Source: Trichodesmium erythraeum IMS101 (GTDB lineage: Bacteria; Cyanobacteriota; Cyanobacteriia; Cyanobacteriales; Microcoleaceae). Taken from it: a stretch of DNA of 32,000 nt. Below the pieces are notes generated by a model. It made no database searches and was not told the origin of the DNA. It saw nothing but the letters and a program-made list of their open reading frames with translations. Made by a program: the position numbers and the translations under genes. The stretch covers positions 7,080,001 through 7,112,000 of the forward strand of contig NC_008312.1 in assembly GCF_000014265.1 (NCBI RefSeq). The letters run 5' to 3'. Shown in pieces: positions 20,809-32,000 of the stretch (positions within the stretch are counted from its first letter, which is position 1; every line of letters starts with the position of its first letter).

Positions 20809-21771
20809 TTAACTACGGTTAATTTCTGCTAAAATTTGATCTAAGATTTCTTGGGCGCCTTGTTTTCTTAGTTTTTGAGCTAATTCGATGCCTATTTGTT
20901 CTGCATCAGCAGTGGCTCCAGTTACAATATCCTTAACTAATTTCTTACCATCTAAACTAGCGACTAAACCAGTTAAAGTTAGTTGTTCTCCTTCTATTTG
21001 GGTGTTAACACCAATGGGAACTTGACAGCCTCCTTCTAATTCTCTCAGAAAAGCACGTTCGGCATAACATCTCTGAGCAGTGGCAGTATGTTCCAGACTT
21101 TTCAATAAATTGAGAATATTATTATCTCCGGCACGACATTCTATTCCTAAAGCACCTTGTCCAACGGCATGAAGAGAAATTTCTGGAGGTATAATTTGAT
21201 GAATGCGATCGCTCATCCCCAACCTATGCAAACCAGCAAAAGCCAATATTAGAGCATCATACTCACCAGCATCTAATTTTGCTAGTCTAGTATTCAGGTT
21301 ACCACGAACATCTTTAAATTCTAAGTGAGGGAAGTGGTAGCGCAGTTGTGCTAAACGTCTTAGGGAAGAGGTACCAATGACAGCACCTTCTGGTAAAGTC
21401 TCAAGTTGTTTATCTTTTAATTTTTCATGGAGGACTAAAGCATCTGCAGGGTTTTCCCGTTCGGTGACGCAACCGAGAATTAGACCTTCTGGTAAGTTTG
21501 TGGGTAAGTCTTTTAAGGAATGAACTGCTAGGTCAGTTTCATTTTGCAGCATTCCTAATTCTAGTTCTTTAGTAAAAAGCCCTTTATCTCCTATTTTTGC
21601 TAAAGCTACATCTAGAATTTTATCTCCTTGGGTAGACATTTTGTGGACTTCAAATGTAATATTTGGGAAATTTTTTTCAAGTTTTTCTTGGACCCAGTAG
21701 GTTTGAATTAAGGCGAGTTGACTTTTGCGTGAACCGATCCGAATGGTAGGAGTAGAGGCAGATATTGTCAT
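20809..21771 (-). CDS. hemC: hydroxymethylbilane synthase (porphobilinogen deaminase)
   Basis: 320 aa. [49 protein letters not shown] and [17 protein letters not shown] are canonical HemC. Confidence 0.92.
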
Positions 21772-21868: not shown

Positions 21869-22599
21869 ATGTTGGAAGGAAGACTAAAAAAACGAATGTC
21901 ATAAACCCAGGAATTCTGATTTACCTAAAGATTTACCTTCTGAGTCTACAGCCTTTTGCCATTACAAACAGTGGGGTTATCAAGGAATTATAGAGAAGAT
22001 TCCAGACCTTTTGCATGGCCAAGTATCCCAATAGGTAAAAAAAACCAAATGGGCAACTCTTATGATCGTCGCTCCAGAGGCAGTGAAAAATACTTGTAAT
22101 GCTAGTGTAGACTCTAAAGGTTTTTGTTTTTACGAGGCCACTAACAGAATTAAGAGACATAAGGCGATGGATGGTCTCGGTTTTCCCTTTTTTGCCCATT
22201 GTACAAAAGGATCCGTTTCTGATGAAGGACGGGCTATTGAAATGTTATAAGACAACATTGATTACTTTAAATCTAAATCAGTTAACATTGCTAAAGTTAC
22301 TATGGCGAGTTGACAATGGATACCACCCCGAAAAGGTAATAGAAAAGAAAATTTATCCGGCATATATTTGACCAAAATTCGGTTTTAACTATTCCTATTA
22401 CCATCAAAGTTGGAGAAAGAAAATTTGGGAAAAACAGGTTAAGTTTGCGTTAAAGTTAGATGGGCCAATAAATGAAGCAACTCCTGGATGGAAAGATGTT
22501 GAAATAACCAAAAACTTTGAAAGGACTCTTAATAAAGCTACAACCAAGATTAATCTGTGTTTGATCCGACTGATGCTTAAGAGGTTGGGGACCCCATAG
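21869..22599 (+). pseudogene. IS5-family (DDE) transposase relic with internal deletion, stops and frameshifts
   Basis: The pieces are MLEGRLKKRMS*; RNSDLPKDLPSESTAFCHYKQWGYQGIIEKIPDLLHGQVSQ*VKKTKWATLMIVAPEAVKNTCNASVDSKGFCFYEATNRIKRHKAMDGLGFPFFAHCTKGSVSDEGRAIEML*; and, in other frames, SNSWMERC* and FERTLNKATTKINLCLIRLMLKRLGTP*, with stop 22597-22599. Confidence 0.75.
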
Positions 22600-22602
22600 A
22601 TA

Positions 22603-22720
22603 CCTGTAGGGGTTCTATATATAGTAGTCCTAAATAGGTTGCGACCAATCAAAAGTAAATAAAACTGTTAAAACTCTTACCTACTCTCTGTTCCCTTTTC
22701 CCTGTTCCTTAAAAAGCAGT
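22603..22720 (+). repeat. ~118-bp repeat module, copy 1 (immediately after the IS5 relic)
   Basis: CTGTAGGGGTTCTATATATAGTAGTCCTAAATAGGTTGCGACCAATCAAAAGTAAATAAAACTGTTAAAACTCTTACCTACTCTCTGTTCCCTTTTCCCTGTTCCTTAAAAAGCAGT. It ends in heptamer-like CTGTTCC repeats. Confidence 0.7.
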
Positions 22721-22855
22721 ATGATTTTTGCTACGAACACTAATCTAGAAAATTTCAAAAAAATAATCGGGACAGGGCAAAAAAATTACTCTTAAGAAAA
22801 AACAAAGAAGAAATAACTTGTATACAATGCCTGGTAAATTAGGAAGTGATTTTTA

Positions 22856-23027
22856 AAACGTATGTAGGGTATGTAAAAGTCCTAGATAAGTTGCGAAAAA
22901 TCAAAAAGTAAACGTATGTAGGGTATGTAAAAGTCCTAGATAAGTTGCGAAAAATCAAAAAGTAAATAAAACTGTTAAAACTCTTACCTATTTTCTATCC
23001 CCTGTTCCCTGTTCCCTAAAAAGCAGT
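22856..23027 (+). repeat. repeat module, copy 2, with an exact 54-bp internal tandem duplication
   Basis: Units 22856-22909 and 22910-22963 are identical (AAACGTATGTAGGGTATGTAAAAGTCCTAGATAAGTTGCGAAAAATCAAAAAGT). They are followed by AAATAAAACTGTTAAAACTCTTACCTATTTTCTATCCCCTGTTCCCTGTTCCCTAAAAAGCAGT, which is collinear with copy 1. Confidence 0.8.
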
Positions 23028-23137
23028 CGTCCAAAATTGGATTATTACATACCAAACTATTGCTTCTCTACTCTATGAAAAATACCAAGTAGTTGAATAA
23101 GGAACTAACTAACAGATCTTTTTATTCTTTCTGACAA

Positions 23138-23908
23138 ATGACAATTAACACAGTCAAAGAACTTAACTTTTCGACAACTTATATACAGGCGAAGTACGTG
23201 AAAAATGTGGAAAACTATCACATTCATAACCGAACTATCGTCATCAACCCCGAAGAGACAGATGCTTACCTTGAAGAAACTGATGCTTTCTTCAAGAGAA
23301 AAGTTAAAGGCATTGAAAAACATAAAAGCATTATTCCAGCTTTCTCGTCGACTATTCTCAATGATATAGTCGTTGAAAGAGCAAAATCTCTACTTTTGCT
23401 TGAAGTAATAAAGACGAGAAACATTGCTAAGATTATTTTTGAAGAAGGGTGGGCTTTATTGGGCAATTCCCCTGATTCTGACTTTCCTAAAGATGTACCC
23501 CTTTGGAAATCTCCCCAATATACAGCAGGTAGGATATCAGTAGATCCATTCTTTTTGACAAGGCAATCACCACATCCAACTACTCAAGAAGATTTTACTC
23601 TTAAAGTAAACCTATGGTATGCTCCTTCCCATACTGATTGTCTTATTCATGATGAACATGACTTTTTGGAAATTCATACACAAATCTTTGGACAGGGACG
23701 GATGCAAAAGTTCAAAGATCACAGTTTTGATAGTCTCTATGAAGATCTGCTGATGACTGAGGGATACACTCAAATTGTTGCCTTTTGTCAAATCAATGCG
23801 CAAGGAGAATATATTTATCCCTGGCATCAGTATTATTCAGAGACTGATTGCATCTGGATGGCGATCGAATATCATCCTGTGGCTAGAGAATTGTCCAGTC
23901 CAAACTAA
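23138..23908 (+). CDS. hypothetical protein with a C-terminal cupin-like motif
   Basis: 256 aa. CLIHDEHDFLEIHTQIFGQGRMQKF fits the cupin motif 1 style (H-x-x-H...E...G). YPWHQYYSETDCIWMAIEYH is a possible motif 2. It lies 138 nt upstream of the GH31 gene on the same strand. I cannot assign a family from sequence alone. Confidence 0.5.
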   Translation: MTINTVKELNFSTTYIQAKYVKNVENYHIHNRTIVINPEETDAYLEETDAFFKRKVKGIEKHKSIIPAFSSTILNDIVVERAKSLLLLEVIKTRNIAKIIFEEGWALLGNSPDSDFPKDVPLWKSPQYTAGRISVDPFFLTRQSPHPTTQEDFTLKVNLWYAPSHTDCLIHDEHDFLEIHTQIFGQGRMQKFKDHSFDSLYEDLLMTEGYTQIVAFCQINAQGEYIYPWHQYYSETDCIWMAIEYHPVARELSSPN

Positions 23909-24046
23909 CCTTAAGAAGAATATAACTTACGCAGTAACACTAAAATTATATAGTGTACTTTGAGTTATGACTTTTGTTAACGCAAAACTCTATCAAGTTA
24001 AGTCAGATTTGCAATTTCAGTTGTCAAAAATTCAAGGAGTAAAACA

Positions 24047-27000
24047 ATGCCGAGTGAAATTTTTAAAAGTGATCGCCTCTATAAATTTATCAAAGTCGAA
24101 GAATACTTCGATCACTACCAAGAATGGGATAAACTGGGACCTGCAAAAAATCCTGTGTTCGACGGGAAGTACACTTTAAGCCTTACCTTTGATAAGGCCG
24201 GCGGAGGTGAGTGCTCAATGTTGCTTGAGATCACTCAGAACGATGTCTTACGGATGCGCTTTAACCCCAACAAAAAATTAGCAGGGGATTATGCAAGGGG
24301 CACTCGCGTGGATAATGATGAAACAGATGAAGAGATCAAAAGGAATAATCAACGTACTGTAACTTACAGACAAGTTAAGGATATTAAGTTAGGAGATCAG
24401 GTTATATTGACGGCAAAAAGCAATTATAACCAGGTTGGTCGTAATACACCCTTCAATATGGAAGTAGTGATCACTTTAAATCCATTTGGTATCAAAGTAT
24501 TCAACAAGTCCGAATCGAATTCAGAGTATGCCAATATTCCTGTCTGGGAAACCGCAAACACTTCAATTTACTATACCGCTAATGGCACAGATGATTATGC
24601 CATCATTCAGTCGGTCAAGAAGTCGGCCGATGCCAAATATATTGGTTTTGGGGAACAGGGGGGAACTAAACTCAGCAAAAATATGGATCAGTTGAATTAT
24701 TTCAACTTTGATAATATGCGCTATCGACAGGTCTATAATCGTGGACCTTTAGATAACCGCGAACCTCTTTACCACTCTGAGCCTTTCTTTTATGAGTTCA
24801 ATGGCGTTCCTGGTAGCGACAATGTTAATGCAGTTCTAGTGGATAACCCAAGTCAAGTATTCATGGACATAGGCTATAGTAATTCTGGTCGCTATATGTT
24901 TGGGACTCGCTTTGGTGATCTTGACTATTATGTGTTTTTTGGAGAAGACCCGAAGAATATTTTAGATAGCTATACGGCCGTGATCGGTCGCCCAGAGTTG
25001 AAACCGCGCTATGCTTTGGGATATCACCAAGGTTGCTATGGATACGAAAAGCGGAGTGACTTAGAATGGGTTGTGGCGCGATATCGGGATTGGGGTATAC
25101 CCATTGATGGTCTCGCTGTTGATGTTGACTTACAAGCAAATTATCGGACTTTTACTATCAACATCAATAATTTCTGGGAACCAGATAAAATGTTTGATAA
25201 CTTGCGAAAGCAGGGGATAAAATGCTGTACGAACATTACTCCCGTGATCAGCAGTCAAGATAAGCTTGGCAAGACAGATTATGACTACTCAACCTACGTT
25301 GAGGGAAAGAATAACAACTACTTTGTTGTTGATAAGCGCTACGATCCATATAATCCAATTAGTAAAGAGTATCAGATCTATAATGGGGGTATTGAAGATC
25401 GTTCCAACAAAGATGATAATTCCGATCCCGAAGGGTTTGATAGTAGTGAGCCTTACATTGGCGAAGTATATTACGGCAAGGATGCCAATGGTAAAGAGCT
25501 GGGAAGCCCTGGTCATTATCCTGATTTAGGCCGTCAAGAAGTACGCGAATGGTGGGGCAAGCAATATCAATATCTGTATGAAATGGGACTAGAATTTGTC
25601 TGGCAGGATATGACTACCCCAGCTATCCGTGACTTCCGTGGGGATATGAAAGGTTTCCCCTTCCGTCTGTATGTGACTGACGACTTCTATCCCTCGGATG
25701 TCAAACTAACCCCAGCTCTGAAAGTTTGGAATTTGTATTCATACAATTTGCACAAAGCCACCTACGAAGGACTCAATAACCTGTACAAACTATCCAAAGG
25801 ACTAGAGTGGCGCGAAAACAAGCGCAACTATATCATCGGACGAGGGAGTTTTTCTGGTTCTCACAGATATTCTGGTTTATGGACTGGGGATAACTCTTCC
25901 GAATGGGCTTTTCTTCAGATGAATATCTCTCAGGTTCTGTCTCTAGGCATGAACGCTTTGGCAGTTACCGGGCAAGATATCGGAGGTTTCGAGCAAGAAT
26001 ATGGTAACGACAAACAGCAGTGGGCGAGTCCGGAACTGGTAATTCGCTGGACTGCTGCAGGTGCCTTCTTACCATGGTTCCGTAACCACTATGTCCGTAA
26101 GGGTCGTAAAGAATTCCAAGAACCATTCCAATATATAGAGTGGTTTGAGACATGGAACAAGCCAATTCCCGAGCCCCAGGACTTGTACAGGATGGTGCCA
26201 GAGATTTGTAAGCATTATATTGAATTGCGCTACCGTCTGATGCAGTTATTCTACGACACATTGTTTGAGAACACTCTGGATGGTCTGCCTATCTGTCGTC
26301 CTTTGTTCCTCAACGATCCCCAGGACAAGTCTCTTTACAATGATAAAGACGAATTTTTAAACAACGAATTTTTCGTAGGCAAGGATTTTCTCGTTGCTCC
26401 GGTATTGCTTCCTCAGAGTGAAACCAATGGTGGCAAGCGGGATATCTATTTACCTAAGCCTAGCTACTGGTACAACTTTGTCAACAACGTTATGCCTCTT
26501 AATAATGCTTTGGAAGGGGGAACAACGATACGAGATTTTGATGCTAATATCAATACTCGTGACCAGCACATTAACTTTATTGTACCCATCTACGTTCGCT
26601 CGGCAGCAATTATTCCCACAATTGAGTTGGAACAATATGTGGGAGAAAAGAACGCCAAAGGAGAAAAAAATCCTATTACCCTGAATATCTATCCAGACTA
26701 TCAGAAGGAGAATGGAGGAGAATACCACATGTACTTGGATGATGGGGAGAGCCGTTCTTCTGCCCCGAAATCACAAGTGGACGATCCCAAGGCAAACGAC
26801 GAATATCGCGAGATTTTGATTACTAATAAATACACTGGGGAAAAGACCAGAGAGATTAAAGTTAATCGTGTTCACGATGGATATACGCCTATGGAAGACT
26901 TTTTCTTTGTGGCAATATTGCACGATCCTACTGAACAAAAGGGAGAACACGGCCCTTTGCAGGAGGTGACTATGGAAGGTAAACCGCAACAGATGGTTAG

Positions 27001-27124
27001 TGACAATGGTGCCCTCTGGGGTAGCCCTAACAACGCATGGTACTATAATGCAGACATCAATATCAGTTTTATCAAGGTGTTTGATAATATGCCTAAGACA
27101 ACTATCATGTTAGGTTATGTCTAA
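24047..27124 (+). CDS. glycoside hydrolase family 31 protein, alpha-1,4-glucan-lyase-like variant
   Basis: 1025 aa. The GH31 blocks are GLEFVWQDMTTPA (nucleophile Asp block, with T-T-P where hydrolases have N-E-P), GRGSFSGSHRYSGLWTGDNSSEW, GQDIGGF (acid/base Asp) and FLPWFRNH. Confidence 0.8.
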   Translation: MPSEIFKSDRLYKFIKVEEYFDHYQEWDKLGPAKNPVFDGKYTLSLTFDKAGGGECSMLLEITQNDVLRMRFNPNKKLAGDYARGTRVDNDETDEEIKRNNQRTVTYRQVKDIKLGDQVILTAKSNYNQVGRNTPFNMEVVITLNPFGIKVFNKSESNSEYANIPVWETANTSIYYTANGTDDYAIIQSVKKSADAKYIGFGEQGGTKLSKNMDQLNYFNFDNMRYRQVYNRGPLDNREPLYHSEPFFYEFNGVPGSDNVNAVLVDNPSQVFMDIGYSNSGRYMFGTRFGDLDYYVFFGEDPKNILDSYTAVIGRPELKPRYALGYHQGCYGYEKRSDLEWVVARYRDWGIPIDGLAVDVDLQANYRTFTININNFWEPDKMFDNLRKQGIKCCTNITPVISSQDKLGKTDYDYSTYVEGKNNNYFVVDKRYDPYNPISKEYQIYNGGIEDRSNKDDNSDPEGFDSSEPYIGEVYYGKDANGKELGSPGHYPDLGRQEVREWWGKQYQYLYEMGLEFVWQDMTTPAIRDFRGDMKGFPFRLYVTDDFYPSDVKLTPALKVWNLYSYNLHKATYEGLNNLYKLSKGLEWRENKRNYIIGRGSFSGSHRYSGLWTGDNSSEWAFLQMNISQVLSLGMNALAVTGQDIGGFEQEYGNDKQQWASPELVIRWTAAGAFLPWFRNHYVRKGRKEFQEPFQYIEWFETWNKPIPEPQDLYRMVPEICKHYIELRYRLMQLFYDTLFENTLDGLPICRPLFLNDPQDKSLYNDKDEFLNNEFFVGKDFLVAPVLLPQSETNGGKRDIYLPKPSYWYNFVNNVMPLNNALEGGTTIRDFDANINTRDQHINFIVPIYVRSAAIIPTIELEQYVGEKNAKGEKNPITLNIYPDYQKENGGEYHMYLDDGESRSSAPKSQVDDPKANDEYREILITNKYTGEKTREIKVNRVHDGYTPMEDFFFVAILHDPTEQKGEHGPLQEVTMEGKPQQMVSDNGALWGSPNNAWYYNADINISFIKVFDNMPKTTIMLGYV

Positions 27125-27297: not shown

Positions 27298-27336
27298 GGG
27301 GGTGAGTGTAAACTATCTGCGTTTGCACTCACCCCC
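27298..27336 (+). terminator. strong stem-loop downstream of the GH31 gene
   Basis: GGGGGTGAGTGTAAAC-TATCTGC-GTTTGCACTCACCCCC gives a 16-bp stem with one G-U pair and a 7-nt loop. It is followed by a T-rich tract, TTCTATTATC. Confidence 0.6.
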
Positions 27337-27743: not shown

Positions 27744-30700
27744 ATGGAGAGAAAATATTTAAGGGAAGCTTTAGTAGTTGGAGTTAACCGTTATCCTATG
27801 TTGAAAAATAAAAAAGTAGGAGATTCGAACCTTAAGGCTGCTGCTAAGGATGCTGAAGCTATTGCTAATATGTTGGAAAAATATGGTAAATTTCGAGTTC
27901 AACGTTTGCCAAAAAAATATGATGAGGAAGGTAAAGAAACTTGTGACCATGAGGGAATAGTTAAGGTTGATGATCTTAAAAAAGCAATTATTAATCTATT
28001 TACACCTCCTGGAAAAAATGAAACTCCTGATGTGGCTTTACTGTTTTTTGCCGGGCATGGTTATGTTAATATAGAAGAAGATATTCGAGAGGGTTTTTTG
28101 GCTACTAGTGATGCTAAGTTTGCGAAAAAGCTCTCGAATAATGAAGATATTTTTGGTGTTCCTTTAAGTTGGTTAAAGGATTTATTGCAAAAGAGTCAGG
28201 TTCAAAAACAAATTGTTTGGTTAGATTGTTGTTTTAGTGGTGAATTATTGAATTTTGACGGGGTAGCTAACCTCAATACTCAAGAAAAAAAGGTCAGTCG
28301 CTGTTTTATTACTGCTTCTCGTTCTTTTCAAACTGCTACAGAAAAAATTGATGGAGAACATGGTTTATTTACTGATAATTTGCTGGAATGTTTAAACCCA
28401 GAAAATTATGTTGATGGTTGGGTAGATAATCATGTTTTGACGGAATCTATTCAAGAAAAGATGTCTCAGACATCTCAAGCACCTATGTGTGATAATTCCG
28501 GGGATACAATTATTCTGACTACTAATAGTCTGAATGAACCTCTGGATGAACGTTGGAAAAATGATCCTCCTTATCGGGGTTTATCTTATTTTCGGCAGCA
28601 GGAGAATGATGGGGTATTTTTTCATGGTAGAACTTCGTTAACTGATAAGTTAATTGAGCTAGTAAAAGATAATAATTTTGTGGCGGTTTTGGGGGCTTCC
28701 GGGAGTGGGAAATCTTCTTTGTTACGGGCGGGTTTGTTATATCAATTGAAGCGGGGGCAGAAAATATCGGGAAGTGATAGATGGTTTTATATTGCTCCTT
28801 TTACTCCGGAGGAGTCTCCTCTGAAAAGTCTGCTGAAAAGTCTGGGGAAAAGTCTGGGGGAAATTAAGATTAAGGGGGAAAAAGTTGAAGGTTTAATTCA
28901 GTTTGTTGATCAAACAGAGGCGGAACAAACAGAGGGGAAAAAGGTCGATTTTTTAACTAAGGAATTAATTGAAGAGAAATTAATTGAGTTTATTGATGTG
29001 GTTGAGGCGGAAAGAGTAATTATGGTGATGGACCAATTTGAAGAGTCTTTTACTCTCTGTAAAACTCACGAAGAACGACTGGATTTTTTTGATTGTTTTT
29101 TGGCTGTTTTGGAAAGGCGAGGTGAGAAGTTTTGTGTGGTGTTGGGAATACGGGCTGATTTTCTGGGCCGCTGTTCTGAATATGGAGGGTTGGCCAATAA
29201 AATTCAGGGACATCAATTATTAGTTACTCCTCTGGACGAGGGTGAAATAGAGGAGGTGATCAAAAAACCGGCGAAATTAGTGGGTATGGATGTTGAGCCC
29301 AACTTGGTTGCCAAAATGAGGGAAGATTTTTTGCGTAACCCTGGTAGTTTACCTCTGCTGGAATATACTTTGGATGCTCTGTGGAGTTTTGCGACTCAAG
29401 GGGAGAATAAAAGTCCATATTTAACTCTGGAAAATTATACAAGTTTGGGTGAAATAGAGGGTGCTTTGACGAAGCGAGCTGATGCGGTTTTTGAGAGTTT
29501 GAATGATGAGGAAAAGTCGGTGGCAAAGAGGATATTTTTAGAGTTGGTTCAGCCTGGGGAAGGGAAAATAAGTCCGGGGAAAATAACGGATACTCGGCGG
29601 CGGGTAATTTTGGAAAAGTTGCCTAATGAACGACATAGTTTAGAGCTTTTGTCTGCAGTTAGTGATAGGTTGGCTGACAAAAATAACAGGTTAATGACTA
29701 AGGATAGGTCGGAGGCGGGAATATTATTGGATATTGTTCATGAGGACTTAATTAGAAGTTGGAAAACTTTGAGGAAATGGGTGGAGGAATATCAAGAGGC
29801 TTTGCCGGTGGAAAGAAAAATTGAGGCTGATGCGGCTGACTGGGAAAAAGAGGGGAAAAGTGAGAATTTGTTGTTACGAGCTGGTCGGTTAACTAAGGCG
29901 GAAGAATATCTGGAAAATTATGGTGAAATGGCTTTATTGGATGGGTTGGCTTATGAGTTTATTGAGGCGAGTCGGGAGTTGAAAATTCGTGAGGAAGAAA
30001 AAGAGAAGGAGCGGCAAAGAAAAGAGAAGGAGCGGCAAAGAAAAGTAGAGGAACAAGCAGCAAGAATATTAGGAATGCTTTCTGACTCAATGATCAGACA
30101 AAAGCTATCTTTACTTGATAAAGGTGTATTACTGAGCGTGGAGTCAATGAAGCAATACTTTGATATCAAAAAACGTTATGGAAAAGCTGACTCGGGCCTA
30201 CTTGTTGAACTGGATCAAACTCTACGGAATGGAGTAAGTCAACTACCCAAGCATCTCTATACTCTCAAACACCAGTCCGATGTATATGCAGTAGCCTTTA
30301 GCCCCGACGGCAAAACCATTGCAACTGCAAGTTTAGACAAAACCGCCCGCCTCTGGGATACTGAGAATGGCAATGTATTAGCTACTCTCAACCACCAGTC
30401 CTCGGTAAATGCAGTAGCCTTTAGCCCCGACGGCAAAACCATTGCAACTGCAAGTTATGACAAAACCGCCCGCCTCTGGGATACTGAGAATGGCAAAGAA
30501 TTAGCTACTCTCAACCACCAGGACTGGGTAAATGCAGTAGCCTTTAGCCCCGACGGCAAAACCATTGCTACTGCAAGTTATGACAAAACCGCCCGCCTCT
30601 GGGATACTGAGAATGGCAAAGAATTAGCTACTCTCAACCACCAGTCCTCGGTAATAGCAGTAGCCTTTAGCCCCGACGGCAAAACCATTGCTACTGCAAG

Positions 30701-32000
30701 TTCTGACAAAACCGCCCGCCTCTGGGATACTGAGAATGGCAATGTATTAGCTACTCTCAACCACCAGGACTGGGTAATAGCAGTAGCCTTTAGCCCCGAC
30801 GGCAAAACCATTGCAACTGCAAGTTCTGACAAAACCGCCCGCCTCTGGGATACTGAGAATGGCAAAGTATTAGCTACTCTCAACCACCAGTCCTCGGTAA
30901 ATGCAGTAGCCTTTAGCCCCGACGGCAAAACCATTGCAACTGCAAGTTCTGACAAAACCGCCCGCCTCTGGGATACTGAGAATGGCAAAGTATTAGCTAC
31001 TCTCAACCACCAGTCCTCGGTAAGAGCAGTAGCCTTTAGCCCGGACGGCAAAACCATTGCAACTGCAAGTTATGACAAAACCGCCCGCCTCTGGGATACT
31101 GAGAATGGCAATGTATTAGCTACTCTACTCCACCAGGACTTGGTAATAGCAGTAGCCTTTAGCCCCGACGGCAAAACCATTGCTACTGCTAGCTGGGACA
31201 AAACCGCCCGCCTCTGGGATACTGAGAATGGCAAAGTATTAGCTACTCTCAACCACCAGTCCTCGGTAAGAGCAGTAGCCTTTAGCCCGGACGGCAAAAC
31301 CATTGCAACTGCAAGTTCTGACAAAACCGCCCGCCTCTGGGATACTGAGAATGGCAAAGTATTAGCTACTCTCAACCACCAGTCCTCGGTAAATGCAGTA
31401 GCCTTTAGCCCCGACGGCAAAACCATTGCAACTGCAAGTTCTGACAAAACCGCCCGCCTCTGGGATACTGAGAATGGCAAAGTATTAGCTACTCTCAACC
31501 ACCAGTCCTCGGTAAGAGCAGTAGCCTTTAGCCCGGACGGCAAAACCATTGCAACTGCAAGTTCTGACAAAACCGCCCGCCTCTGGGATACTGAGAATGG
31601 CAAAGTATTAGCTACTCTCAACCACCAGTCCAGGGTATTTGCAGTAGCCTTTAGCCCCGACGGCAAAACCATTGCTACTGCAAGTTCTGACAAAACCGCC
31701 CGCCTCTGGGATACTGAGAATGGCAATGTATTAGCTACTCTCAACCACCAGTTCTGGGTAAATGCAGTAGCCTTTAGCCCCGACGGCAAAACCATTGCAA
31801 CTGCAAGTTCTGACAAAACCGCCCGCCTCTGGGATACTGAGAATGGCAAAGTATTAGCTACTCTCAACCACCAGTCCAGGGTATTTGCAGTAGCCTTTAG
31901 CCCCGACGGCAAAACCATTGCTACTGCAAGTTCTGACAAAACCGCCCGCCTCTGGGATACTGAGAATGGCAAAGAATTAGCTACTCTCAACCACCAGTCC
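27744..32000 (+). CDS. caspase-like (peptidase C14) - STAND P-loop NTPase - WD40 repeat protein, 3' end beyond the window
   Basis: The frame is open from ATG 27744 (in-frame TAA at 27729) to the window end, more than 1418 codons with no stop in my manual translation. The caspase dyad is FFAGHGY (His codon 28056-28058) and WLDCCFSG (Cys codons 28227-28232). The STAND entry motif is DPPYRGLSYF...VFFHGR, with Walker A GASGSGKSS and Walker B VIMVMDQFEE. A charged linker (EKERQRK x2) precedes at least 14 WD40 units from 30255. It is not in the ORF track because it has no stop in the window. Confidence 0.9.
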   Translation, partial: MERKYLREALVVGVNRYPMLKNKKVGDSNLKAAAKDAEAIANMLEKYGKFRVQRLPKKYDEEGKETCDHEGIVKVDDLKKAIINLFTPPGKNETPDVALLFFAGHGYVNIEEDIREGFLATSDAKFAKKLSNNEDIFGVPLSWLKDLLQKSQVQKQIVWLDCCFSGELLNFDGVANLNTQEKKVSRCFITASRSFQTATEKIDGEHGLFTDNLLECLNPENYVDGWVDNHVLTESIQEKMSQTSQAPMCDNSGDTIILTTNSLNEPLDERWKNDPPYRGLSYFRQQENDGVFFHGRTSLTDKLIELVKDNNFVAVLGASGSGKSSLLRAGLLYQLKRGQKISGSDRWFYIAPFTPEESPLKSLLKSLGKSLGEIKIKGEKVEGLIQFVDQTEAEQTEGKKVDFLTKELIEEKLIEFIDVVEAERVIMVMDQFEESFTLCKTHEERLDFFDCFLAVLERRGEKFCVVLGIRADFLGRCSEYGGLANKIQGHQLLVTPLDEGEIEEVIKKPAKLVGMDVEPNLVAKMREDFLRNPGSLPLLEYTLDALWSFATQGENKSPYLTLENYTSLGEIEGALTKRADAVFESLNDEEKSVAKRIFLELVQPGEGKISPGKITDTRRRVILEKLPNERHSLELLSAVSDRLADKNNRLMTKDRSEAGILLDIVHEDLIRSWKTLRKWVEEYQEALPVERKIEADAADWEKEGKSENLLLRAGRLTKAEEYLENYGEMALLDGLAYEFIEASRELKIREEEKEKERQRKEKERQRKVEEQAARILGMLSDSMIRQKLSLLDKGVLLSVESMKQYFDIKKRYGKADSGLLVELDQTLRNGVSQLPKHLYTLKHQSDVYAVAFSPDGKTIATASLDKTARLWDTENGNVLATLNHQSSVNAVAFSPDGKTIATASYDKTARLWDTENGKELATLNHQDWVNAVAFSPDGKTIATASYDKTARLWDTENGKELATLNHQSSVIAVAFSPDGKTIATASSDKTARLWDTENGNVLATLNHQDWVIAVAFSPDGKTIATASSDKTARLWDTENGKVLATLNHQSSVNAVAFSPDGKTIATASSDKTARLWDTENGKVLATLNHQSSVRAVAFSPDGKTIATASYDKTARLWDTENGNVLATLLHQDLVIAVAFSPDGKTIATASWDKTARLWDTENGKVLATLNHQSSVRAVAFSPDGKTIATASSDKTARLWDTENGKVLATLNHQSSVNAVAFSPDGKTIATASSDKTARLWDTENGKVLATLNHQSSVRAVAFSPDGKTIATASSDKTARLWDTENGKVLATLNHQSRVFAVAFSPDGKTIATASSDKTARLWDTENGNVLATLNHQFWVNAVAFSPDGKTIATASSDKTARLWDTENGKVLATLNHQSRVFAVAFSPDGKTIATASSDKTARLWDTENGKELATLNHQS
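30255..32000 (+). repeat. 123-bp (41-codon) tandem array, 14 full units plus a partial one, encoding WD40 blades
   Basis: The exact period of 123 was verified from GCAGTAGCC at 30288, 30411 and 30534. The unit is LATLNHQxxVxAVAFSPDGKTIATASxDKTARLWDTENGxx. The DNA is nearly identical between units. Confidence 0.95.

What the first reader, a model, noticed from the sequence alone, without database searches (positions are those of the whole stretch)
23138..27124. GH31 enzyme with a lyase-like WQDMT nucleophile block, paired with a cupin-like ORF: possible anhydrofructose-type glycogen catabolism
**Seen in sequence:**
- The 1025-aa GH31 protein has FVWQDMTTPA where GH31 hydrolases have WxDMNEP. 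It retains the other family blocks (WTGDN, DIGGF).
- Its size and long inserts are unlike typical 700-800 aa bacterial alpha-glucosidases.
- A 256-aa ORF with a His-rich cupin-like motif lies 138 nt upstream on the same strand.
- A strong terminator (27298-27336) closes the pair.
- The pair sits next to IS5 debris and repeat modules.

**Established knowledge (as I recall it; needs alignment):**
- Alpha-1,4-glucan lyases of red algae and fungi are ~1000-1100 aa GH31 members. They have a DMT-type nucleophile block and release 1,5-anhydro-D-fructose.
- Downstream anhydrofructose enzymes in fungi include cupin-domain dehydratases or tautomerases.

**Inference:** this may be a cyanobacterial glucan lyase plus an anhydrofructose-converting partner.
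Basis: partly seen in the sequence, partly recalled or inferred. Interest (0 to 1): 0.65.

Follow-up and report, generated by a model that had tools for sequence, protein, structure and literature searches.

The report
Cyanobacterial glucan-lyase and anhydrofructose-enzyme gene pair
Trichodesmium carries a two-gene unit that looks like a bacterial version of the "anhydrofructose pathway" known only from fungi and red algae: an enzyme that probably cuts glycogen by elimination rather than by water, and a partner related to the fungal enzyme that processes the resulting sugar.

Summary
**Observation.** It is real. A 256-aa ORF lies at 23138-23908. A 1025-aa GH31 ORF follows 138 nt downstream at 24047-27124. 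A strong hairpin terminator sits at 27298-27336.

**GH31 protein.**
- It carries all sequence marks that separate alpha-1,4-glucan lyase from GH31 hydrolases: N396 (GLase N459), the D521 nucleophile in WQDMTTP, Thr instead of the hydrolase Glu at nucleophile +3, and the D644 acid.
- It falls in a clade holding the crystallised red-algal lyase, apart from 10 hydrolase-type GH31 proteins (bootstrap 84%).
- Its sister group is fungal.

**256-aa protein.**
- It is a confidently modelled bicupin. Its best structural match is the cupin domain of fungal aldos-2-ulose dehydratase/isomerase (AUDH), which converts 1,5-anhydrofructose.
- 32 of 36 family members give weak hits to Pfam AUDH_Cupin.

**Gene context in other genomes.**
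- In 50 of 80 genomes the bicupin gene is immediately followed by this GH31.
- In 17 of these genomes a clear homologue of the AUDH beta-propeller (dehydratase) domain sits just upstream (E 1e-67).

**In Trichodesmium.** The third gene is missing. Only a 23-codon relic of a SnoaL-like gene remains.

**Verdict.** No biochemistry exists. It appears undescribed for prokaryotes in the literature I could search.

The parts
24047..27124 (+). GH31 gene (1025 aa), candidate alpha-1,4-glucan lyase. It has no signal peptide. Key codons: N396 at 25232-25234, nucleophile D521 at 25607-25609, T524 at 25616-25618, acid D644 at 25976-25978.
   Evidence: ORF. Pfam GH31. A single full-length alignment to lyase 2x2h. 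Signature residues. Phylogeny.
23138..23908 (+). Bicupin gene (256 aa), a stand-alone relative of the cupin (isomerase) domain of fungal aldos-2-ulose dehydratase/isomerase. It carries a Trichodesmium-specific 13-aa insert after residue 50.
   Evidence: ORF. Family alignment. AF2 model with pLDDT 91. Foldseek best TM to 4a7y. 32 of 36 members give a weak AUDH_Cupin hit. Insert fixed in the genus.
23909..24046 (+). 138-nt spacer between the two genes. No terminator-like site was found in it, which is consistent with co-transcription.
   Evidence: In relatives GH31 follows on the same strand, starting roughly 50-300 nt past the end of the bicupin match.
27298..27336 (+). Intrinsic-terminator-like hairpin that closes the pair.
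   Evidence: 16-bp stem. (-33.1 kcal/mol, z -7.9).
23026..23100 (+). Relic of a SnoaL_2/NTF2-like gene: the last 23 codons plus the stop. This is the third gene of the cluster in the closest cyanobacterial relatives.
   Evidence: tblastn 19/23 identical to the L040 protein, E 1e-6. Sequence read. Pfam SnoaL_2 for the intact homologues. The same relic is in 5 environmental Trichodesmium contigs.
22651..23027 (+). Repeat modules that replace the 5' part of the SnoaL-like gene: a 70-nt repeat in 2 copies and a 54-nt tandem repeat in 2 copies.
22062..22250 (+). Transposase fragment (IS4/IS5-type debris) between hemC and the pair.

Best explanation

**Step 1 (inferred from sequence and phylogeny).** The cytoplasmic GH31 protein acts on alpha-1,4-glucan (glycogen or malto-oligosaccharides) as a lyase.
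- D521 forms the glucosyl-enzyme intermediate.
- D521, helped by N396, then abstracts the C2 proton. This replaces attack by water.
- The product is 1,5-anhydro-D-fructose.

**Step 2 (inferred from fold, weak profile similarity and gene neighbourhood).** The bicupin is the stand-alone counterpart of the metal-dependent cupin (isomerase) domain of fungal AUDH.
- It converts an anhydrofructose-derived enone, such as ascopyrone M, into a microthecin- or ascopyrone-type product.

**The intervening dehydration.**
- In many other bacteria it is encoded by the adjacent AUDH beta-propeller homologue.
- In the closest relatives of Trichodesmium a SnoaL-like gene occupies the third place.
- In Trichodesmium that gene has decayed and no propeller gene lies in the 32-kb window.
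- This step is therefore either encoded elsewhere, spontaneous, done by the bicupin itself, or missing.
For: **GH31 protein**
- It aligns in one stretch (residues 210-906) to Gracilariopsis lyase 2x2h.
- Among solved structures, the lyase is the top hit per catalytic unit for the family profile: 254 bits, against 213 for Ro-aG1, 200 for sugar beet and 159 for NtMGAM.
- It has TNIT where the lyase has N459. A review states that N459 hydrogen-bonds the nucleophile and is Ile in hydrolases (PMC12441222).
- All 10 hydrolase-type sequences have I/V/W/Y at that position, plus Glu at nucleophile +3. The window protein has Thr at +3 and the lyase has Val.
- WQDMTTP is present in 120 of 121 family members.
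- NJ trees place all WQDMT proteins, including the red-algal lyases, apart from hydrolases (bootstrap 84-85%). The cyanobacterial family is sister to a fungal group that includes Morchella (96-99%).
- It is 37% identical to the Morchella protein over its full length.

**Bicupin**
- The family holds 187 or more relatives with an invariant His/Glu block.
- The AF2 model has pLDDT 91.
- By TM-score the best PDB match is AUDH 4a7y, at 0.62. The other bicupins shown score 0.25-0.33.
- 32 of 36 members hit Pfam AUDH_Cupin (best E 4e-4). More distant relatives also hit it.

**Gene context**
- GH31 lies directly downstream of the bicupin in 50 of 80 loci from several phyla.
- A 420-480-aa gene directly upstream in 17 of these loci matches AUDH residues 13-427 at E 1.4e-67. 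It matches Pfam AUDH_beta_propeller at 1e-52 to 1e-56.

**Conservation in Trichodesmium**
- The pair is kept intact in environmental Trichodesmium with catalytic residues unchanged.
Against: - No enzyme of this bacterial clade has been assayed.
- The window's own bicupin gives no Pfam hit. The family profile finds no PDB sequence. The AUDH link therefore rests on fold, sub-threshold profile hits and neighbourhood.
- The window lacks the propeller gene and the SnoaL-like gene is a relic, so the pathway here may be incomplete.
- Identity to the crystallised lyase is only 27%.
- I could not show that the Morchella sister protein is the assayed Morchella lyase.
- A subgroup inside the same clade has lost the Asn, so clade membership alone does not fix the function.
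- GH31 dN/dS within Trichodesmium is about 0.43, which indicates only moderate constraint. The changes are concentrated in the C-terminal domain.
- The role of Glu-to-Val at nucleophile +3 is recalled from memory (Rozeboom et al. 2013). The paper was not available to read.
Confidence: 0.62

Rival explanations
1. The GH31 protein is an ordinary alpha-glucosidase, as public records name it, that releases glucose. The upstream bicupin is functionally unrelated or plays an accessory role.
For: - Every source names the family 'alpha-glucosidase' or 'TIM-barrel domain-containing protein'.
- The nucleophile and acid residues are intact, as in hydrolases.
- Hydrolase structures score only moderately below the lyase.
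Against: - The protein lacks the Glu at nucleophile +3 and the Ile/Asp pair at the TNIT position. All 10 hydrolase-type sequences have these.
- It groups with lyases in the trees.
- It is tightly linked to homologues of both catalytic domains of the anhydrofructose-converting enzyme AUDH.
Confidence: 0.1
2. The GH31 protein is a lyase, but the pathway in Trichodesmium is a truncated relic. 1,5-anhydrofructose is the end product or is handled by unrelated enzymes. The bicupin has no substrate or has taken on another role.
For: - The SnoaL-like gene is reduced to 23 codons in all Trichodesmium contigs examined.
- There is no AUDH propeller in the window or in those contigs.
- Propeller relics lie upstream of the bicupin in two other cyanobacteria, which shows repeated loss of the third gene.
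- GH31 dN/dS is about 0.43.
Against: - The bicupin is intact, keeps every family-invariant residue, and differs by only 4 nucleotides between strains.
- About 20 other genomes also keep just the bicupin-GH31 pair. This argues that the pair is a working unit by itself.
Confidence: 0.17
3. The AUDH-like genes serve a glucosone-to-cortalcerone type route (sugar oxidase plus AUDH). The GH31 protein merely supplies glucose, or it acts on another alpha-glucoside.
For: - From memory, AUDH also converts glucosone.
- Streptomyces loci pair the bicupin and propeller with a secreted BBE-type FAD oxidase and no GH31.
- A true pyranose oxidase exists in Oscillatoria princeps (PMC11650716).
Against: - No oxidase gene is conserved next to the GH31-containing loci.
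- The O. princeps locus has none within 10 kb.
- The GH31 active-site signature is lyase-type, not hydrolase-type.
Confidence: 0.08

Closest known systems
Alpha-1,4-glucan lyase (EC 4.2.2.13), GH31, Gracilariopsis lemaneiformis (PDB 2X2H)
   Same: - About 1000-1100 aa, with the same domain order.
- Full-length alignment to the window protein.
- Identical WQDMT nucleophile block.
- TNIT block with the lyase-specific Asn.
- DIGGF acid and WFRNHY blocks.
- No Glu at nucleophile +3.
   Different: - Only 27% identity.
- The window protein belongs to a different subclade, sister to fungal proteins. The algal enzyme nests among other bacterial proteins.
- Bacterial and cytoplasmic, and encoded in an operon.
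- Never assayed.
Aldos-2-ulose dehydratase/isomerase AUDH (EC 4.2.1.110), Phanerochaete chrysosporium (PDB 4A7K/4A7Y)
   Same: - The bicupin matches its two-cupin middle domain in fold (TM 0.62) and, weakly, in profile.
- In related bacteria the neighbouring gene is a clear homologue of its beta-propeller domain.
   Different: - AUDH is one 900-aa chain: propeller, two cupins and a lectin domain.
- In bacteria the domains are separate genes and there is no lectin domain.
- In Trichodesmium only the cupin part is present.
- Sequence similarity of the cupin part is below Pfam's threshold.
Fungal anhydrofructose pathway (Morchella/Peziza lyases; anhydrofructose dehydratase and ascopyrone tautomerase of Anthracobia melaloma)
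   Same: - The same proposed order of reactions: glucan lyase, then dehydration, then isomerisation.
- The Morchella GH31 protein P0359 is the closest eukaryotic relative of the window protein (37% identity).
   Different: - The fungal genes are not known to be clustered.
- From memory, the Anthracobia enzymes have no published sequences.
- The identity of P0359 with the assayed Morchella lyase is not shown.
Bacterial GH31 alpha-glucosidases (for example Ro-aG1, PDB 3NUK; Thermus, Listeria and Lactobacillus GH31)
   Same: - The same family fold.
- The same nucleophile and acid positions.
   Different: - They are 660-800 aa.
- They have W(N/I/L)DMNEP and I-(I/V)-D-(P/A) motifs.
- They fall outside the clade.
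- The ones looked at have no AUDH-type neighbours annotated.

Membership tests
GH31 alpha-1,4-glucan lyase (EC 4.2.2.13) | GH31 catalytic (beta/alpha)8 domain with flanking domains | tested here: met
   PF01055 at 2e-71 and PF21365 at 1e-13.
GH31 alpha-1,4-glucan lyase (EC 4.2.2.13) | Nucleophile Asp (GLase D553) and acid Asp (D665) conserved | tested here: met
   D521 in WQDMT and D644 in DIGGF, aligned to 2x2h.
GH31 alpha-1,4-glucan lyase (EC 4.2.2.13) | Asn at GLase position 459 (Ile in hydrolases), which supports the nucleophile as base | tested here: met
   N396 in TNIT. It is invariant in the 14-member family alignment. The position is I/V/W/Y in 10 hydrolase-type sequences. Its role is described in PMC12441222.
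GH31 alpha-1,4-glucan lyase (EC 4.2.2.13) | No Glu at nucleophile +3 (hydrolase DMNE; lyase DMTV) | tested here: met
   The window protein has DMTT. The functional weight of this position is recalled from Rozeboom et al. 2013 and was not read here.
GH31 alpha-1,4-glucan lyase (EC 4.2.2.13) | Phylogenetic placement with assayed lyases rather than hydrolases | tested here: met
   NJ trees give 84-85% bootstrap for the clade that includes the Gracilariopsis lyases. The trees use a limited hydrolase sample and a distance method only.
GH31 alpha-1,4-glucan lyase (EC 4.2.2.13) | Releases 1,5-anhydro-D-fructose from alpha-1,4-glucans | not testable with these tools
   Needs an enzyme assay.
AUDH cupin (isomerase) domain, Pfam PF18637 | Two-cupin fold superposable on the AUDH middle domain | tested here: met
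   AF2 model with pLDDT 91. Foldseek TM is 0.62 to 4a7y, against 0.33 or less for the other bicupins shown.
AUDH cupin (isomerase) domain, Pfam PF18637 | Sequence match to the family model above its curated threshold | tested here: not met
   The window protein has no hit. 32 of 36 relatives hit only below threshold, best E 4e-4. The profile finds no PDB sequence. I therefore describe it as a distant stand-alone relative, not as a member of the Pfam family.
AUDH cupin (isomerase) domain, Pfam PF18637 | Metal (Zn) site in the cupin barrel | tested here: inconclusive
   Invariant H174, E178, H180, Q182 and H230 lie in the second barrel. They were not superposed on the AUDH ligands.
Anhydrofructose pathway (lyase + AUDH-type dehydratase/isomerase) | Dehydratase component (AUDH beta-propeller, PF22301) present with the lyase | tested here: not met
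   It is absent from the 32-kb window and from 5 environmental Trichodesmium contigs. It is present next to the pair in 17 related loci. The rest of the Trichodesmium genome could not be searched.

The most novel reading that the evidence does not exclude
Bacteria, especially filamentous cyanobacteria, own a complete operon-encoded anhydrofructose pathway.
- Its parts are a GH31 glucan lyase, an AUDH-type propeller dehydratase or a SnoaL-like substitute, and a bicupin isomerase.
- It turns stored glycogen into microthecin- or ascopyrone-type antimicrobial or antioxidant enones.
- The fungal and red-algal lyases and fungal AUDH descend from such bacterial genes by transfer between domains of life, with AUDH arising by gene fusion.
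- In Trichodesmium, a globally important nitrogen fixer, a reduced two-gene version diverts glycogen carbon into anhydrofructose chemistry.
Probability: 0.35. Interest if true: 0.82.

Novelty: new variant of a known kind. Interest (0 to 1): 0.7.

Why it matters
- Alpha-1,4-glucan lyase and the anhydrofructose pathway are established biochemically only in red algae and fungi. From memory, anhydrofructose formation has been reported in bacteria without a gene.
- Full-text searches linking glucan lyase with cyanobacteria found nothing relevant. Searches for a bacterial lyase or AUDH-type operon also found nothing.
- A 2024 review of prokaryotic alpha-glucan metabolism does not mention GH31 in the part of its text that is held.
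- If the prediction holds, glycogen catabolism in many cyanobacteria has a third, non-hydrolytic and non-phosphorolytic exit. It would also apply to cable bacteria and some Paenibacillus, Ktedonobacteria and Acidobacteria.
- That exit would lead to bioactive enones.
- The prediction gives cloned, operon-defined candidates for the sequence-orphan downstream steps.
- It offers an origin for the eukaryotic enzymes.
- It bears on carbon budgeting and colony chemistry in Trichodesmium.
- The whole idea can be tested directly with three recombinant proteins.

Tried and rejected
- **AF2 model of the GH31 protein.** With a 14-sequence alignment the model was poor (pLDDT 52.5). I did not use it or search with it.
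- **Bicupin sequence searches.** The single sequence and the family profile found nothing meaningful in PDB. Pfam found nothing for the window copy.
- **Bicupin profile against 1.84 billion representatives.** It found a small family (233 representatives). None of the 150 listed was a long AUDH-like fusion. The few longer relatives carry TAT signals or DUF6209.
- **Papers not held.** Rozeboom 2013, Okuyama 2016 and the GH31 subfamily paper were unavailable. The CAZy subfamily could not be assigned. One mechanistic point rests on memory.
- **Lyase-like GH31 in Sinorhizobium and Pseudohoeflea.** Their neighbours are unannotated proteins with no AUDH-type domains. They give no extra support.
- **Morchella sister protein.** Source names do not identify it as the assayed lyase. 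Morchella papers annotate several GH31 genes as lyase by similarity only.
- **Pyranose oxidase next to the Oscillatoria princeps locus.** Absent.
- **Rfam over the window.** No hits.
- **Reciprocal search with the algal lyase.** The search is word-indexed and therefore biased toward WQDMT proteins. I did not count the absence of ordinary glucosidases in that list as evidence. I built trees with independently fetched hydrolases instead.
- **Apparent cupin-propeller fusions in Streptomyces ORF lists.** These are frame artefacts of high-GC DNA.

Full report
**1. What is there**

The window comes from a Trichodesmium erythraeum-type chromosome. Its proteins are found on a 7,750,108-bp contig, and near-identical copies are named Trichodesmium in MAGs. 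The layout downstream of hemC (20809-21771, minus strand) is:

| Coordinates | Feature |
|---|---|
| 22062-22250 | transposase fragment |
| 22651-23027 | 70-nt repeat (2 copies) and 54-nt tandem repeat (2 copies) |
| 23138-23908 (+) | 256-aa ORF |
| 23909-24046 | 138-nt spacer |
| 24047-27124 (+) | 1025-aa GH31 ORF |
| 27298-27336 | 16-bp-stem hairpin, -33.1 kcal/mol, z -7.9 |

- The next gene starts near 27744. It is an unrelated caspase-like/WD40 protein.

**2. The GH31 protein**

*Family and closest structure.*
- Pfam places it in GH31.
- Against solved structures it aligns in a single stretch (210-906) with the Gracilariopsis alpha-1,4-glucan lyase 2x2h.
- A profile of 14 family members scores the lyase highest per catalytic unit: 254 bits. 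Ro-aG1 scores 213, sugar-beet glucosidase 200 and NtMGAM 159.

*Diagnostic positions.*
- The PDB numbering offset can be read from the alignment. GLase D553 corresponds to D521 of the window protein. GLase N459 corresponds to N396, in the block TNIT that both proteins share.
- A 2025 review states that N459 hydrogen-bonds the nucleophile so that it can act as the base. It also states that hydrolases have Ile there (PMC12441222).
- I fetched ten hydrolase-type GH31 sequences independently of the motif: MGAM, Ro-aG1, YicI, YihQ, and plasmid-borne enzymes of Thermus, Listeria, Paucilactobacillus, Agathobacter, Haloterrigena and Gluconobacter.
- In all ten, the N459 position is I, V, W or Y. Two residues later they have Asp or Asn instead of Thr. 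The residue three after the nucleophile is always Glu.
- The window protein has Asn, Thr and Thr at these three positions. The lyase has Asn, Thr and Val.
- From memory, Rozeboom et al. 2013 showed that changing this Glu to Val in a Sulfolobus glucosidase shifts it toward lyase activity. I could not read that paper.

*Phylogeny.*
- Neighbour-joining trees used 828-868 columns and 200 bootstraps.
- All WQDMT proteins form one clade apart from the hydrolases (84-85%).
- The cyanobacterial family, with cable-bacterium members, is sister to a fungal group that includes Morchella (96-99%).
- The red-algal lyases nest among other roughly 1100-aa bacterial proteins (100%).
- The window protein is 37% identical to the Morchella protein over its full length and 27% identical to the algal lyase.
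- WQDMTTP occurs in 120 of 121 family members.
- The family has more than 600 relatives. Those listed are about 1000 aa, mostly from filamentous cyanobacteria, and are named only 'alpha-glucosidase' or 'TIM-barrel protein'.

**3. The 256-aa protein**

- It belongs to a conserved family without a Pfam domain. There are 187 hits and 233 representatives at 50% identity in 1.84 billion proteins.
- An invariant block IH..H...E.H.Q..G.GRMQKF and a second block YPWHQY..DTDCIW are present.
- The AF2 model is confident (pLDDT 91, pTM 0.89) and all-beta.
- Foldseek finds bicupins. Most superpose on one barrel only (TM 0.25-0.33). Fungal aldos-2-ulose dehydratase/isomerase 4a7y reaches TM 0.62 over the whole query.
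- Sequence evidence is weak but consistent. 32 of 36 family members hit Pfam AUDH_Cupin below threshold (best E 4e-4), and no other family recurs comparably. More distant relatives hit it too.
- The window copy itself gives no hit. It carries a 13-aa insert that is fixed in Trichodesmium.

**4. Gene neighbourhood**

A scan of one genome per species returned 237 relatives of the bicupin, and I kept 80 loci. Results:

| Architecture | Loci |
|---|---|
| GH31 directly downstream of the bicupin, same strand | 50 of 80 (cyanobacteria, a Ktedonobacteraceae MAG, an Actinomycetota MAG, Propionivibrio, Terriglobales); in Paenibacillus GH31 lies upstream |
| AUDH propeller homologue directly upstream, plus bicupin and GH31 | 17 |
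| SnoaL_2-like gene in the cluster, with bicupin and GH31 | 12 |
| Bicupin and GH31 only | about 20 (two carry short propeller relics) |
| Bicupin and propeller without GH31 (mostly Streptomyces) | 23 |

- The upstream gene in the 17 loci encodes 420-480 aa. It matches AUDH residues 13-427 at E 1.4e-67. It matches Pfam AUDH_beta_propeller at 8e-52 and 2e-56.
- From memory of Claesson et al. 2012, AUDH dehydrates anhydrofructose at the propeller zinc site and isomerises ascopyrone M to microthecin at the cupin zinc site.
- The bacterial three-gene unit therefore contains homologues of every catalytic part of the fungal lyase-plus-AUDH route, as separate genes.
- The 12 SnoaL-containing loci are the closest relatives of Trichodesmium: Hormoscilla, Paraprochloron, Oscillatoria SIO1A7, Lyngbya and some Nostoc. 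The SnoaL_2 assignment is from Pfam, and the fold is related to ketosteroid isomerase.
- The Streptomyces loci also carry a BBE-type FAD oxidase, a UDP-GlcNAc 2-epimerase and an acyltransferase.

**5. The Trichodesmium version**

- No propeller gene lies in the window.
- Directly upstream of the bicupin, at 23026-23100, the last 23 codons and the stop of the SnoaL-like gene survive. They are 19/23 identical to the J06633_8 protein. They abut a copy of the 70-nt repeat.
- The same relic, the same hemC-bicupin-GH31 order, and no propeller are found in five environmental Trichodesmium contigs. The loss is therefore old.
- Both remaining genes are intact. The bicupin differs by four nucleotides between strains.
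- The GH31 gene is 96.9% identical between strains, with dN/dS about 0.43. 23 of its 47 amino-acid changes fall in the last 83 residues, and N396, D521, T524 and D644 are unchanged.
- GH31 GC3 (0.44) is well above that of most neighbouring genes.

**6. Interpretation**

- The best reading is a reduced bacterial anhydrofructose module: a cytoplasmic glucan lyase acting on glycogen, plus an AUDH-cupin-type enzyme acting on an anhydrofructose-derived enone.
- *Shown:* the ORFs, the motifs, the fold, the phylogenetic position, the co-conservation and the AUDH-domain homology of the neighbours.
- *Inferred:* the lyase chemistry, the substrate of the bicupin and the product.
- *Open:* how, or whether, the dehydration step happens in Trichodesmium.
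- The rivals are a plain alpha-glucosidase, a truncated relic pathway, and a glucosone/cortalcerone-type route. They are weighed in their own sections.

**7. Novelty**

- Full-text searches linking glucan lyase with cyanobacteria found nothing relevant. Searches for AUDH, microthecin or ascopyrone and for a bacterial lyase operon also found nothing.
- A 2024 review of prokaryotic alpha-glucan enzymes does not mention GH31 in the part of its text that is held.
- The CAZy GH31 subfamily paper was not available. It may already list bacterial members of the lyase subfamily.
- I therefore rate this as a new variant of a known kind rather than categorically new.

Noticed in passing
window 23026-23100 (+); L086-L090 4888-4956: A 23-codon C-terminal relic of a SnoaL_2/NTF2-like gene, cut off by a 70-nt repeat copy. 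It is present identically in five environmental Trichodesmium contigs. Intact homologues are the third gene of the cluster in the closest cyanobacterial relatives.
   Followed up: yes
window 22651-22720, 22958-23027, 22856-22963: A 70-nt dispersed repeat (2 copies, 91% identical) flanks a perfect 54-nt tandem duplication. This looks like a small composite repeat element inserted upstream of the pair.
   Followed up: partly
window 22062-22371 (+): Transposase fragment, 67-71% identical to transposases on cyanobacterial plasmids. One of them is annotated as IS4 family. Pfam gives no hit, so the IS5 label is unverified.
   Followed up: partly
window ~27744-32000 (+), runs off the end: A large ORF opens with a caspase-like domain (FFAGHG ... 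DCCFSG), followed by an NTPase-like region. From 30260 it carries 14 copies of a 123-nt repeat that look like WD40 repeats (not checked against Pfam). In environmental Trichodesmium the gene downstream of GH31 is thiC instead, so this junction is strain-specific.
   Followed up: partly
window 24047-27124: GH31 GC3 is 0.44, against 0.20-0.27 for most neighbouring genes. Between Trichodesmium strains, half of the amino-acid changes fall in the last 83 residues. This suggests a recombinant or fast-evolving C-terminal domain.
   Followed up: partly
P0294-P0342, trees: The red-algal glucan lyases nest among roughly 1100-aa bacterial proteins (40-45% identity; Rhodobacteraceae, Pseudohoeflea, a Clostridiales MAG; more distantly Brenneria, Rhizobium, Sinorhizobium). 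The fungal group is sister to the cyanobacterial family. This suggests two separate transfers between bacteria and eukaryotes.
   Followed up: partly
L043-L080 (Streptomyces and other Actinobacteria): The bicupin and AUDH-propeller genes occur without GH31. They sit with a TAT-secreted BBE-type FAD oxidase, a UDP-GlcNAc 2-epimerase and an acyltransferase_3. This may be a different sugar-derived secondary-metabolite route, possibly cortalcerone-like.
   Followed up: partly
L054 about 130 nt and L068 about 135 nt upstream of the bicupin: Short relics (27-39 aa, 77-78% identical) of the AUDH-propeller gene lie upstream of intact bicupin-GH31 pairs in Calothrix and an Oscillatoriales strain. The third gene has been lost repeatedly.
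   Followed up: no
P0213, P0240 (377 aa): Fusions of DUF6209 with the bicupin, on contigs whose lengths match those of lyase-like GH31 hits P0009 and P0013.
   Followed up: no
P0345-P0354 (~928 aa group): A subgroup inside the WQDMT clade has lost the lyase-type Asn (AIVT or TVVT) and changed GDN to GDT or GDS. This suggests a further change of function within the clade.
   Followed up: no
L036 5314-6711: A cytochrome P450 gene lies 1.7 kb upstream of the propeller-bicupin-GH31 unit in Oscillatoria princeps. A review notes a P450-like step in rhizobial anhydrofructose catabolism. This is a single case and is not conserved.
   Followed up: no
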